From Escherichia coli (GTDB lineage: Bacteria > Pseudomonadota > Gammaproteobacteria > Enterobacterales > Enterobacteriaceae): DNA of 64,000 nucleotides. The stretch is from assembly GCF_024502345.1 (NCBI RefSeq), contig NZ_JALDNN010000001.1. One strand, 5' to 3'. The notes under the pieces were generated by a model. That model was not told where the DNA came from. It did no database searches and was given only the letters and a program-made list of their open reading frames with translations. Positions 24,640-62,780 of this stretch are shown here, piece by piece (positions within the stretch are counted from its first letter, which is position 1; every line of letters starts with the position of its first letter). A program made the translations under genes and the position numbers.

Positions 24640-24730
24640 TGCCGGATGCGGCGTGAACGCCTTATCCGCCCTACGCGGTTCTGGCACATTTTGTAGGCCT
24701 GATAAGACGCGGCAAGCGTCGCATCAGGCA
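24640..24730. repeat. REP pair
   Basis: GCCGGATGCGGCGTGAACGCCTTATCCGCC and GTAGGCCTGATAAGACGCGGCAAGCGTCGCATCAGGC between convergent araJ and mak. Confidence 0.8.
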
Positions 24731-44743: not shown

Positions 44744-45268
44744 TTGTCATCCCTCCTCAGGGACATAATAAGTTGATCCATCAATTATCAATGCATAGAA
44801 AACATATTATGTTTCGCGTTGACGATTATGCGGCGTTATAGAGGAATGGTTCAATTATTCTTTCCCCTAAGTCCGATTGCGGACATATATAAAGCACGTG
44901 AACACACACACAGAAATAAATAACAAAAACACAATATTTCAATACGTTAATGAAAGCGTTAATTTTAAAACATAGACCATGAAAATATAAAACAACTAAA
45001 ACAGACAAATAATGTATCAATAAGCAATGAACTTTAAGTTATTCACTTTTTGAAAACGTCACCAAATCCCCAAAAACAATAATCTATGGCTATAAATAAA
45101 AATTAAAAATATTTTCAGTGAATATGAAATTATTGCTATTTCTATTACAAAGATGTCCTGGTCTCTCTTTCATTCTCTTCTTGTCAACATCACGACAACT
45201 TTCGTAAAACACTCCTGCCCCGCTTCAGGTATACTGTGCACCTTAATTCCACAAACATCAGGCAGACC

Positions 45269-46243
45269 ATGACAGACTTAATCCAACGCCCTCGTCGCCT
45301 GCGCAAATCTCCTGCGCTGCGCGCTATGTTTGAAGAGACAACACTTAGCCTTAACGACCTGGTGTTGCCGATCTTTGTTGAAGAAGAAATTGACGACTAC
45401 AAAGCCGTTGAAGCCATGCCAGGCGTGATGCGCATTCCAGAGAAACATCTGGCACGCGAAATTGAACGCATCGCCAACGCCGGTATTCGTTCCGTGATGA
45501 CTTTTGGCATCTCTCACCATACCGATGAAACCGGCAGCGATGCCTGGCGGGAAGATGGACTGGTGGCGCGTATGTCGCGCATCTGCAAGCAGACAGTGCC
45601 AGAAATGATTGTTATGTCAGACACCTGTTTCTGTGAATACACTTCTCACGGTCACTGCGGTGTGCTGTGCGAGCATGGCGTCGACAACGACGCGACTCTG
45701 GAAAATTTAGGCAAGCAAGCCGTGGTTGCAGCTGCTGCAGGTGCAGACTTCATCGCCCCTTCCGCCGCGATGGATGGCCAGGTACAGGCGATTCGCCAGG
45801 CGCTGGACGCTGCTGGCTTTAAAGATACGGCGATTATGTCGTATTCGACCAAGTTCGCCTCCTCCTTTTATGGTCCGTTCCGTGAAGCTGCCGGAAGCGC
45901 ATTAAAAGGCGACCGCAAAAGCTATCAGATGAACCCAATGAACCGTCGTGAGGCGATTCGTGAGTCACTGCTGGATGAAGCCCAGGGCGCAGACTGCCTG
46001 ATGGTTAAACCTGCTGGAGCGTACCTCGACATCGTGCGTGAGCTGCGTGAACGTACTGAATTGCCGATTGGCGCGTATCAGGTGAGCGGTGAGTACGCGT
46101 TGATTAAGTTCGCCGCGCTGGCGGGTGCTATAGATGAAGAGAAAGTGGTGCTCGAAAGCTTAGGTTCGATTAAGCGTGCGGGTGCGGATCTGATTTTCAG
46201 CTACTTTGCGCTGGATTTGGCTGAGAAGAAGATTCTGCGTTAA
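45269..46243 (+). CDS. hemB: porphobilinogen synthase (delta-aminolevulinic acid dehydratase)
   Basis: Track ORF 45236..46243; recognised N-terminus [28 protein letters not shown] at 45269 gives 324 aa. Confidence 0.95.
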
Positions 46244-46293
46244 TTTTGTTTCCTCTCAGAAAGGGGGAGTTAACCTGTTGAAAGTACGGTGAA

Positions 46294-46334
46294 CGCCCCC
46301 TCACCCTAACCCTCTCCCCAAGGGGGCGAGGGGA
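46294..46334. repeat. GC-rich palindromic intergenic element / probable bidirectional terminator
   Basis: CGCCCCCTCACCCTAACCCTCTCCCCAAGGGGGCGAGGGG; CGCCCCC pairs with GGGGGCG; between convergent hemB and tauD. Confidence 0.5.
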
Positions 46335-46349
46335 CCGTCCACTCTCGTA

Positions 46350-47201
46350 TTACCCCGCCCGATAAAACGGTTTATCCCCAAGAATCGTCGCCCGATGCAT
46401 TATCCGTCGCTGTGGCAGGTAATCGGCATTGGCATAGTGCTGGGTCACGCGGTTATCCCAAATCGCAATATCATTTGGTTGCCAGCGCCAGCGCACCTGA
46501 AACTCCGGTTTGGTGATATGGGCAAACAAAAAACTTAACAAGGCTTCGCTCTCTTTCTCGCTCACATCAACAATTCGCGTAGTAAAGCCTTCATTCACAA
46601 ACAGCGCCTGTTTACCGCTCACCGGATGCGTTCGCACCACCGGATGTAGCAACGGCGGGTTTTTCGCGACCGCCTCGCGCCAGCGTTGATGTTCCTCCTC
46701 GGTTTTGCGGTATTTGTATTCCGGGAACGATTTACGAAAATCATGCTCCGCACGCAGCCCGCTCAGCAGCTGGCGGAAGGGAACAGAGAGCGCCTCATAG
46801 GCCGCAATACCGCTGGTCCAGAGCGTATCGCCGCCGGTCGAAGGTAACTCTTTCGCTGCCAGAATCGCCCCTGCGGGTGGCGTTTCAATAAATGTCACAT
46901 CGGTATGCCAGTTGTCGTTATCCGGCGGATTATCGTTATGGGTATCCAGCACGATGATCTCGTCAACCCCTTCAGCATGAGGGTAAACAGGGTGAATATG
47001 CAGTTCGCCAAAACGCTGGGCCAGCGCGCGTTGCTGCAGCGGCGTAATGGCTTGATCGCGCAGAAACACCACCTGATGGCGCAGTACCGCATGGTAAAGT
47101 TGTTCAAACTGATTATCGCTTAACGGGCGCGTCAGGTCGGCACCCGAAATTTGTGCTCCGATATACGGCCCCAGCGGGGTAATGCTCAGACGTTCACTCA
47201 T
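46350..47201 (-). CDS. tauD: taurine dioxygenase (alpha-ketoglutarate dependent)
   Basis: Track ORF 283 aa, [39 protein letters not shown]... Confidence 0.95.
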
Positions 47202-60377: not shown

Positions 60378-60470
60378 CTGCCGGATGCGGCGTGAACGCC
60401 TTATCCGGCCTACACTTCGCCCATAAACCGTAGGCCTGATAAGACGCGTAAGCGTCGCATCAGGCATCTG
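60378..60470. repeat. REP pair
   Basis: CCGGATGCGGCGTGAACGCCTTATCCGG and GTAGGCCTGATAAGACGCGTAAGCGTCGCATCAGGC between convergent frmB and yaiL. Confidence 0.8.
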
Positions 60471-62432: not shown

Positions 62433-62780
62433 ATGTAGGCCGGATAAGGCGTTCACGCCGCATCCGGCAGTCGTGTGCAGATGCCTGATGCGACGCTTGC
62501 GCGTCTTATCAGGCCTACAAATTCCCGCGCCATCCGTAGGCCGGACAAGACGTTTGCGCCGCATCTGGCAGTCGTGCGCAGATGCCTGATGCGACGCTAA
62601 CGCGTCTTATCAGGCCTACAAATTCCCGCGCCATCCGTAGGCCGGATAAGGCGTTCACGCCGCATCCGGCAGTCGTGCGCAGATGCCTGATGCGACGCTA
62701 ACGCGTCTTATCAGGCCTACAAATTCTCGCGCCATCCGTAGGCCGGATAAGGCGTTCACGCCGCATCCGGCAGTCGTGCT
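62433..62780. repeat. BIME: array of about seven alternating REP units (about 3.5 tandem doublets of roughly 100 bp)
   Basis: Repeated GTAGGCCGGATAAGGCGTTCACGCCGCATCCGGCAGTCGTG and GATGCCTGATGCGACGCT(A/T)(A/G)CGCGTCTTATCAGGCCTAC units with near-identical copies between mhpT and mhpE. Confidence 0.85.

What the first reader, a model, noticed from the sequence alone, without database searches (positions are those of the whole stretch)
46294..46334. GC-rich palindromic element between convergent hemB and tauD
CGCCCCCTCACCCTAACCCTCTCCCCAAGGGGGCGAGGGG can form a G/C-only stem. It is unlike the REP consensus seen elsewhere in the window and looks like a member of a different small intergenic repeat family. 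It probably acts as a bidirectional terminator or RNA-stabilising hairpin.
Basis: seen in the sequence. Interest (0 to 1): 0.25.

Follow-up and report, generated by a model that had tools for sequence, protein, structure and literature searches.

The report
Known E. coli BoxC repeat copy
The GC-rich palindrome between hemB and tauD is a known copy of the E. coli BoxC intergenic repeat (also published as PIT, TMECO no. 5 and G-quadruplex motif HPGQ 13); it probably acts as a 3'-end-protecting RNA hairpin, not a terminator, so the finding is ordinary.

Summary
The sequence is real, and the window is E. coli chromosome. The reverse complement of window 46297-46332 is CCCTCGCCCCCTTGGGGAGAGGGTTAGGGTGAGGGG. 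That is letter for letter TMECO no. 5 (MG1655 388,664-388,699) of Holder et al. 2015, which is the BoxC/PIT repeat. The same copy is G-quadruplex motif HPGQ 13 of Kaplan et al. 2016.

The terminator idea is not supported:
- Neither strand has a U tract after the stem.
- Holder et al. cite an earlier study that found no terminator activity for PIT elements.
- Published data put a Rho termination region about 165 nt downstream on the hemB transcript.
- No curated Term-seq 3' end lies at this copy.

The "RNA-stabilising hairpin" alternative is plausible. Term-seq 3' ends sit 3-12 nt after the hairpin of six sibling copies, and two of those have Rho termination regions downstream.

The spacer is dimorphic: 1,819 of 5,426 E. 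coli genomes carry an unrelated 39-nt spacer with a plain hairpin instead.

Verdict: already known, low interest.

The parts
46297..46332 (-). BoxC core, identical to TMECO no. 5 (type A, one mismatched triplet): C block CCCTCGCCC, loop CCTTG, G block 1 GGGAGAGGG, loop TTA, G block 2 GGGTGAGGG(G).
   Evidence: Matches the published pattern. Identical to Table 1 entry no. 5 of PMC4666352 at MG1655 388,664-388,699. The spacer is identical to K-12. The copy was re-found by regex together with the other 22 K-12 copies.
46298..46318 (-). G-quadruplex-type tract GGGAGAGGGTTAGGGTGAGGG (G3N3G3N3G3N3G3), the HPG1 motif, HPGQ no. 13.
   Evidence: It is the only such tract in the window, with zero expected by chance. 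Kaplan et al. list it between tauD and hemB with midpoint 388,688.
46310..46333 (+). Proximal Watson-Crick hairpin on the hemB-sense (C-rich) RNA: CCCUCUCCCC-AA(G)-GGGGCGAGGG(G). By analogy with the lldD and yjbD copies, the processed 3' end is predicted near 46335-46336.
   Evidence: This hairpin is in the minimum-free-energy fold of the spacer. The 51-nt element folds at -19.9 kcal/mol. At sibling copies the 3' end falls at GGGGACC| and GGGGACT|.
46285..46349 (-). Extended hairpin on the tauD-sense (G-rich) RNA. It starts 3 nt after the tauD stop codon; the flanks GUGGACG/CGUUCAC and UACG/CGUA extend the BoxC stem.
   Evidence: The fold is -38.5 kcal/mol with z = -4.3, and none of 200 shuffles fold as well.
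46252..46269 (-). Possible degenerate BoxC half-copy CTCCCCCTTTCTGAGAGG just after the hemB stop. On the + strand its G-rich part (AGGGGGAG) can pair with the distal C block of the intact element.
   Evidence: Direct repeat D1 and inverted repeat I1. Local alignment to the BoxC consensus is matched or beaten by 18 of 2000 shuffles.
45269..46243 (+). hemB (porphobilinogen synthase). Its 3' UTR carries the element in the C-rich sense.
   Evidence: RefSeq annotation under the match. Coordinates are mapped from MG1655 388,753-389,727.
46350..47201 (-). tauD (taurine dioxygenase, last gene of tauABCD). Its 3' UTR carries the element in the G-rich sense.
46344..46497 (+). Stretch downstream of the element on the hemB transcript, antisense to tauD. 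Its first 50 nt are C-rich (19 C, 8 G). It runs to the published Rho termination region peak (MG1655 388,499(-), window about 46497).
   Evidence: Adams et al. supplementary file 2: Rho score 3.8, p = 2e-9. C/G counts.

Best explanation
This is copy no. 5 of the E. coli BoxC repeat family, also published as PIT element, TMECO and HPG1 G-quadruplex motif. It is a ~36-nt core of one C-rich 9-mer and two G-rich 9-mers (GGGWGAGGG) with semi-conserved flanks.

Shown: its identity, its family, its intergenic position, the lack of a U tract, and a Rho termination region downstream on the hemB strand.

Inferred: at this locus it works passively at the RNA level.
1. hemB transcription runs through the element. 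The RNA carries the C-rich arms plus one hairpin.
2. Rho terminates transcription roughly 160 nt further on, inside antisense tauD.
3. 3'-to-5' exonucleases (PNPase, RNase II) trim back to the BoxC hairpin. This would set a stable hemB 3' end about 3-4 nt after the stem, near window 46336.
4. On the other strand, the much stronger G-rich hairpin starts 3 nt after the tauD stop codon. It would cap the tauABCD mRNA in the same way when that operon is expressed.

At the DNA level the element marks a rearrangement-prone spacer.
For: Identity:
- Exact match to the published pattern and to Table 1 entry no. 5 of PMC4666352.
- The spacer is identical to MG1655.
- All 23 published K-12 copies were re-found.
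- The 60-nt query hits a median of 18 places per genome.
- The copy is listed as HPGQ 13.

RNA role:
- No terminator-like site is called here.
- A Rho termination region peaks at 388,499(-), score 3.8, p = 2e-9, about 165 nt downstream of the element.
- C exceeds G just downstream of the hairpin, as described for Rho-dependent termini.
- Term-seq 3' ends lie 3-12 nt after the hairpin of six sibling copies: lldD 3,781,065; yjbD 4,231,270; glnH 847,200; the ppiC side 3,959,467; cstA 632,098; and the fepB leader 624,567.
- The lldD 3' end has an intrinsic-terminator score of 1.32 (threshold 3) and is flagged as lying in a Rho termination region.
- Rho region peaks lie 430 nt (lldD) and 179 nt (yjbD) downstream of those ends.
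- The general mechanism is from Dar & Sorek 2018: U-less stem-loops protect Rho-terminated RNAs from PNPase and RNase II.
- The alternative allele, in 1,819 genomes, also places a stable U-less hairpin in the spacer.
Against: - No curated Term-seq 3' end is listed at this copy in three growth conditions. hemB coverage is low (86 reads in the 800-nt upstream window), so this absence is weak evidence.
- The hemB-sense hairpin is no more stable than shuffles of the same composition (z = -0.8).
- The Rho region coordinate comes from 800-nt windows and is coarse.
- Only a minority of BoxC copies show 3' ends.
- The 3' ends at sibling copies could be incidental consequences of any stable hairpin rather than a selected function.
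- There are no tauD data, because tauABCD is not expressed in the media used.
Confidence: 0.5

Rival explanations
1. Neutral or selfish repeat. The copy is a remnant of a spreading or recombining intergenic repeat with no selected role at this locus, and any RNA 3' ends at sibling copies are by-products of a stable hairpin.
For: - One third of E. coli genomes (1,819 of 5,426) lack it and carry an unrelated spacer.
- A further allele has a 51-nt insertion that brings the canonical flank of other copies, which suggests exchange between copies.
- Published work found no link to gene function, distance or orientation.
- A degenerate half-copy lies beside it.
Against: - The core is kept nearly identical among 23 K-12 copies.
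- Both spacer alleles provide a stable hairpin, which hints at a constraint on having one.
- 3' ends sit precisely at sibling copies.
Confidence: 0.25
2. DNA-level non-B structure. The G-rich strand folds into an intrastrand purine-motif triplex or a G-quadruplex when single-stranded. This stalls replication or repair and makes the locus a source of genomic variation or a regulatory switch (Holder 2015; Kaplan 2016).
For: - The sequence fits the triplex pattern and the G3N3 quadruplex pattern.
- Triplex formation and a G4/hairpin switch are reported in vitro.
- TMECO loci are more variable than control loci.
- This locus is dimorphic, with an extra insertion allele.
Against: - Published CD and NMR of the double-stranded form showed only duplex.
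- In vivo DMS footprinting showed no protection of the triplex guanines.
- Holder et al. report that PIT elements blocked polymerase only in vitro and had no in vivo effect.
- Variability could equally come from recombination between repeat copies.
- This reading is compatible with the RNA role rather than exclusive of it.
Confidence: 0.15
3. Bidirectional intrinsic (Rho-independent) terminator that serves both hemB and tauD.
For: - It is a GC-rich palindrome centred between convergent genes.
- The tauD-sense hairpin is strong (-38.5 kcal/mol) and is followed by UUU.
- Kaplan et al. speculated about a terminator role for these motifs.
Against: - No U tract meets the scan's criteria on either strand.
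- Holder et al. cite an earlier study that found no terminator activity for PIT elements.
- A Rho termination region lies downstream on the hemB strand.
- The lldD sibling's 3' end has an intrinsic-terminator score of 1.32, below the threshold of 3.
- No Term-seq 3' end is listed here.
Confidence: 0.07

Closest known systems
BoxC / PIT element / TMECO (Holder et al. 2015, PMC4666352). Holder et al. attribute BoxC to work of the 1990s and PIT to Maher and co-workers, 2000-2002.
   Same: Same sequence, same genomic position. It is entry no. 5 of the published MG1655 list: type A (TTA second loop) with one mismatched triplet, intergenic.
   Different: Nothing structural. This report adds the allele frequencies at this locus in 5,426 genomes and the overlap of sibling copies with published RNA 3' ends.
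HPG1 G-quadruplex-hairpin-duplex switch motif (Kaplan et al. 2016, PMC5100583)
   Same: GGGAGAGGGTTAGGGTGAGGG preceded by a C-rich block. This copy is HPGQ no. 13, between tauD and hemB.
   Different: It is the same object seen through a G-quadruplex prediction. Quadruplex formation in vivo is untested.
REP/BIME elements acting as mRNA 3' stabilisers (Newbury et al. 1987 and Khemici & Carpousis 2004, as cited in PMC6061677)
   Same: Both are dispersed intergenic palindromes transcribed into 3' UTRs or intra-operon spacers. Both are U-less stable hairpins at which 3' ends accumulate. The glnH-glnP BoxC copy parallels the classic intra-operon REP case.
   Different: The sequence is unrelated, and the REP consensus is absent here. 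BoxC has three blocks with two alternative pairings, far fewer copies (about 20-30 against several hundred), and no known dedicated transposase or binding protein.
[quoted passage not shown]
   Same: A stable stem-loop without a U tract, C>G sequence downstream, and a Rho termination region further downstream.
   Different: For this particular copy, the steady-state 3' end at the foot of the hairpin has not been observed.
Canonical intrinsic terminator
   Same: A GC-rich stem-loop downstream of a stop codon.
   Different: There is no U tract, and Holder et al. report that an earlier study found no terminator activity for the family.

Membership tests
BoxC / PIT / TMECO repeat | Three-block pattern CCCTCNCCC-N3-6-GGGNGAGGG-N3-GGGNGAGGG (Holder et al.) | tested here: met
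   One exact match, at 46298-46332(-); zero expected in shuffles.
BoxC / PIT / TMECO repeat | Identity with a catalogued copy | tested here: met
   The sequence equals Table 1 no. 5, MG1655 388,664-388,699. The window spacer is identical to MG1655.
BoxC / PIT / TMECO repeat | Dispersed and multi-copy in the genome | tested here: met
   23 strict copies re-found in MG1655. The 60-nt query hits a median of 18 places per genome in 5,425 genomes.
BoxC / PIT / TMECO repeat | Strictly intergenic location | tested here: met
   It lies in the 106-nt spacer between the hemB and tauD stop codons.
BoxC / PIT / TMECO repeat | Forms an intrastrand purine-motif triplex as single-stranded DNA | not testable with these tools
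   Reported in vitro for the family and not seen in vivo. Only the sequence prerequisites could be checked here.
HPG1 G-quadruplex motif | GGGAGAGGGTTAGGGTGAGGG (four G3 tracts with 3-nt loops) and a C-rich 5' flank | tested here: met
   Exact match at 46298-46318(-). Listed as HPGQ 13.
Intrinsic (Rho-independent) terminator | GC-rich stem-loop followed directly by a U tract (at least 5 T in 8 nt) | tested here: not met
   No terminator-like site is called at 46285-46349 on either strand. The tails are ACCGUCCA on the + strand and UUUCAACA on the - strand.
Intrinsic (Rho-independent) terminator | An RNA 3' end at the site in vivo, independent of Rho | tested here: not met
   No curated Term-seq 3' end lies at 388,4xx-388,8xx or contains this copy's sequence. 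A Rho termination region lies downstream. This rests on one published data set.
REP/BIME | REP consensus GCCKGATGCGRCGY | tested here: not met
   There are 13 matches in the window and none in 46200-46400.
Protective 3' stem-loop of Rho-terminated transcripts | Stable U-less stem-loop with a Rho termination region and C>G sequence downstream | tested here: met
   Folds. Rho region at 388,499(-). C/G is 19/8 in the 50 nt after the element.
Protective 3' stem-loop of Rho-terminated transcripts | Steady-state 3' end immediately after the stem | tested here: inconclusive
   Not listed for this copy. Present at six sibling copies. hemB coverage is low.
Rfam RNA families | A match at or above a family's gathering score | tested here: not met
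   Only chance-level matches, E of at least 1.3 and far below the gathering scores.

The most novel reading that the evidence does not exclude
The same three 9-mers, with the same choices at the free positions (CCCTC[T/G]CCC, GGGAGAGGG, GGGTGAGGG), recur in distant lineages: E. coli, the betaproteobacterium Mitsuaria chitosanitabida (at least 145 copies, mostly in inverted pairs), a Methylomirabilota MAG, a Contendobacter MAG and an unclassified MAG.

This could mean that BoxC is recognised by a conserved trans-acting factor, such as a mobilising enzyme or a structure-specific nucleic-acid-binding protein. In that reading it is not only a passive hairpin, and its RNA 3'-end role in E. coli would be a domesticated side effect.
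Probability: 0.1. Interest if true: 0.5.

Novelty: already known. Interest (0 to 1): 0.12.

Why it matters
The finding itself matters little. The element and this very copy are already in the literature under four names.

Two points remain of modest use. First, BoxC still has no accepted function. Overlaying published 3'-end maps suggests that it behaves like REP, as an exonuclease stop for Rho-terminated mRNAs, and this is cheap to test. Second, the hemB-tauD spacer is a natural two-allele system (a BoxC spacer and a plain-hairpin spacer) across thousands of genomes. It could serve to measure what, if anything, BoxC adds.

Tried and rejected
- Rfam scan of 45700-46900 at a permissive threshold: only chance-level hits.
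- Consensus terminator and promoter scan: nothing at the element, and nothing in the UTI89 allele either.
- REP membership: rejected.
- Other 3'-end data sets (Dar & Sorek 2018, Choe et al. 2022, a 2025 3'-seq comparison, a nanopore study): no supplementary tables are held, so there was no second source for a hemB 3' end.
It gave no picture of the distribution within Enterobacteriaceae and no outgroup for the hemB-tauD spacer. I therefore cannot say which allele is ancestral.
- Search for a transposase-like gene bracketed by inverted motif copies in Mitsuaria: the genes between wider pairs are ordinary (LysE, MFS, GGDEF/TPR).
- Counting Mitsuaria copies inside long ORFs was uninformative, because spurious ORFs abound in high-GC DNA.
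- A palindromic extension through the conserved flanks of the other copies was examined by eye and is not general. Only copy-specific outer stems exist.
- I considered the C-rich arm as a rut site for Rho. This is compatible with the C/G counts but was not tested.
- Literature search for a published link between the BoxC repeat and RNA 3' ends found none. The other 'boxC' hits concern the rRNA antitermination box.

Full report
**Observation**

It lies in a 106-nt spacer between two convergent ORFs, one ending at 46243 on the + strand and one at 46350-47201 on the - strand. A 1,966-nt stretch covering both ORFs and the spacer matches 5,424 of 5,426 complete E. coli genomes. The genes under the match are annotated hemB, tauD and tauC. 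The MG1655 record has the same layout.

The inverted repeats are real. They are CGCCCCCT/AGGGGGCG (8 of 8 complementary) and CCCCTCACCC/GGGCGAGGGG (9 of 10). The stems are G/C-rich but not G/C-only. The motif occurs once in the window, and none is expected by chance. REP sequences occur 13 times elsewhere in the window and not here.

**Identity**

A 60-nt query centred on the element finds a median of 18 similar places per genome in 5,425 E. coli genomes, so it is a dispersed repeat. The literature search led to Holder et al. 2015 (PMC4666352). They define the pattern CCCTCNCCC-N3-6-GGGNGAGGG-N3-GGGNGAGGG and state that the motif had earlier been described as BoxC and as the PIT element. Their Table 1 lists 23 copies in MG1655. 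No. 5, at 388,664-388,699, is CCCTCGCCCCCTTGGGGAGAGGGTTAGGGTGAGGGG. That is exactly the reverse complement of window 46297-46332.

- The pattern matches the window once, at that place.
- The window spacer is identical to MG1655.
- I fetched all 18 published MG1655 loci and re-found all 23 copies by regular expression.
- The flanks outside the 35-nt core are semi-conserved..gtC on the left and gAA.ag..cGc on the right. The unit is therefore somewhat longer than the core, in line with the 50-56 bp quoted for BoxC.
- Kaplan et al. 2016 (PMC5100583) describe the same object as a G-quadruplex/hairpin switch and list this copy as HPGQ 13 between tauD and hemB. The tract GGGAGAGGGTTAGGGTGAGGG is the only G3N3G3N3G3N3G3 tract in the window.
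- Rfam has nothing for it.

**Is it a terminator?**

- The consensus scan calls no terminator at the element on either strand.
- The hemB-sense tail after the stem is ACCGUCCA. The tauD-sense tail is UUUCAACA.
- Holder et al. report that an earlier study by Maher and co-workers found no promoter or terminator activity for PIT elements and no effect on RNA polymerase.
- In the MG1655 data of Adams et al. 2021 (PMC7815308), a bicyclomycin-sensitive Rho termination region peaks at 388,499 on the minus strand, antisense to tauD (Rho score 3.8, p = 2e-9). This is about 165 nt beyond the element in the direction of hemB transcription.
- Their curated Term-seq lists for three growth conditions hold no 3' end at 388,4xx-388,8xx and no entry containing this copy's sequence.

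hemB transcription therefore seems to pass through the element. hemB coverage is low, so the missing 3' end is weak evidence.

**Is it an RNA-stabilising hairpin?**

I searched the sequence column of the same Term-seq tables for BoxC 9-mers. This found 3' ends at six other BoxC or BoxC-like copies. I checked the position of the 3' nucleotide against the genome sequence.

| Copy | 3' end | Sequence at the end |
|---|---|---|
| lldD | 3,781,065(+) | ...GGGAGAGGGGACC\| |
| yjbD, convergent with rluF | 4,231,270(-) | ...GGGGCGAGGGGACT\| |
| glnH, inside glnHPQ | 847,200(-) | ...GGGGAGAGGATTA\| |
| ppiC side of ilvC/ppiC | 3,959,467(-) | ...GGGAGAGGGTCGG\| |
| cstA | 632,098(+) | 11 nt after the stem |
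| fepB leader | 624,567(-) | 12 nt after the stem |

- The lldD end has an intrinsic-terminator score of 1.32 (threshold 3) and is flagged as lying in a Rho termination region.
- Rho region peaks lie 430 nt downstream of the lldD end and 179 nt downstream of the yjbD end.
- ilvC transcripts that cross their BoxC copy in the C-rich sense meet a Rho region roughly 350 nt on.

This is the architecture that Dar & Sorek 2018 (PMC6061677) describe for Rho-dependent transcripts. Termination happens far downstream, exonucleases trim the RNA back to a stable U-less stem-loop, and C>G sequence follows the stem.

At hemB the same pieces are present:
- a hairpin on the hemB-sense RNA;
- 19 C against 8 G in the next 50 nt;
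- the Rho region about 165 nt on.

By analogy with lldD and yjbD, which share the GGGGAC flank, the processed hemB 3' end should fall near window 46335-46336. On the tauD strand the element with its flanks folds into a much stronger hairpin that starts 3 nt after the stop codon (-38.5 kcal/mol, z = -4.3). No expression data exist for tauD, because the tau operon is off in the media used. Two caveats apply. The hemB-sense fold is no better than composition-matched shuffles (z = -0.8). The inference for this copy rests on its siblings.

**Population view**

The spacer is dimorphic.
- About 3,600 of 5,426 genomes carry the BoxC spacer.
- 1,819 genomes, UTI89 among them, carry an unrelated 39-nt spacer. 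Its only feature is a plain 10-bp GC hairpin (-16.7 and -17.2 kcal/mol on the two strands), again with no U tract.
- About 237 genomes fall in the 80-90% identity band. The one I examined (DETEC-S565) has the BoxC spacer with a 51-nt insertion beside the element. The insertion brings the canonical flank GACTGTCCGTGCTCGC seen at other copies, which suggests exchange between copies.

This fits the report that TMECO loci are unusually variable. It also shows that both alleles keep a stable hairpin between the two stop codons. I could not obtain an outgroup, so the ancestral allele is unknown.

**DNA-structure readings**

The sequence meets the requirements for an intrastrand purine-motif triplex and for a G-quadruplex. 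Both have been shown in vitro for the family. However, Holder et al. saw only duplex for the double-stranded form and no protection of the triplex guanines in vivo. These readings can be neither tested here nor excluded, and they are compatible with an RNA-level role.

**Beyond E. coli**

Even so, it returned at least 145 copies from Mitsuaria chitosanitabida, 13 from a Methylomirabilota MAG, 3 from a Contendobacter MAG and 5 from an unclassified MAG. All make the same choices at the three free positions of the pattern; the loops and flanks are lineage-specific. In Mitsuaria most copies form inverted pairs less than 300 nt apart. The genes between the wider pairs are ordinary (LysE, MFS, GGDEF), not transposases. 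Occurrence of the motif in many proteobacteria, and partial conservation across bacteria, are already published.

**Verdict**

The element is already known, down to this copy. The terminator reading is not supported. The stabilising-hairpin reading is the best current explanation, at about even odds. Interest is low.

Noticed in passing
window 46252-46269 (- strand): CTCCCCCTTTCTGAGAGG, just after the hemB stop, looks like a degenerate BoxC half-copy. Its alignment to the BoxC consensus is matched or beaten by 18 of 2000 shuffles. On the + strand its G-rich part can pair with the distal C block of the intact element (inverted repeat I1, 14 nt, 86% complementary).
   Followed up: partly
L018 301-339 (UTI89), against window 46244-46349: The hemB-tauD spacer is dimorphic in E. 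coli. 1,819 of 5,426 genomes have an unrelated 39-nt spacer with a plain hairpin ATGCCGGGTT-ATCC-AACCCGGCAT. About 3,600 have the BoxC spacer.
   Followed up: yes
L019 about 390-440 (strain DETEC-S565): A third allele has a 51-nt insertion next to a slightly mutated BoxC. The insertion starts with GACTGTCCGTGCTCGC, the canonical flank of other BoxC copies, which suggests recombination between copies. About 237 genomes fall in the same 80-90% identity band; only this one was examined.
   Followed up: partly
MG1655 3,781,065(+), 4,231,270(-), 847,200(-), 3,959,467(-), 632,098(+), 624,567(-) (loci L012, L141, L142, L014, L143, L005): Published Term-seq 3' ends fall 3-12 nt after the hairpin of six other BoxC or BoxC-like copies. 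Three of these (near glnH, yjbD and cstA) are degenerate copies that are not in the 23-copy TMECO list. I found no paper that states this link.
   Followed up: partly
L029-L135 (Mitsuaria chitosanitabida), L021-L028 (Methylomirabilota MAG), L036-L038, L136-L140: The same three-block motif, with the same bases at the free positions, is very abundant in distant lineages. The fetched Mitsuaria loci alone hold at least 145 copies, mostly as inverted pairs less than 300 nt apart with the constant loop GCTTGC and right flank TCTTCGGGC.
   Followed up: partly
window 62455-62771; 24641-24729; 60380-60465; 4847; 26719: REP/BIME elements. There is an array of seven REPs in alternating orientation with a period of about 100 nt at 62455-62771, two inverted pairs, and two single copies.
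   Followed up: no
L020 (NZ_LR536431.1 4,622,974-4,624,274): One E. coli isolate has a second hemB, only 84% identical over the 101-nt stretch that matched (its 3' end). It lies next to a lysophospholipid acyltransferase gene instead of tauD.
   Followed up: no
window 45236-45269: The mechanical ORF for hemB starts at a GTG at 45236 (335 aa). The RefSeq K-12 start maps to 45269 (324 aa).
   Followed up: no
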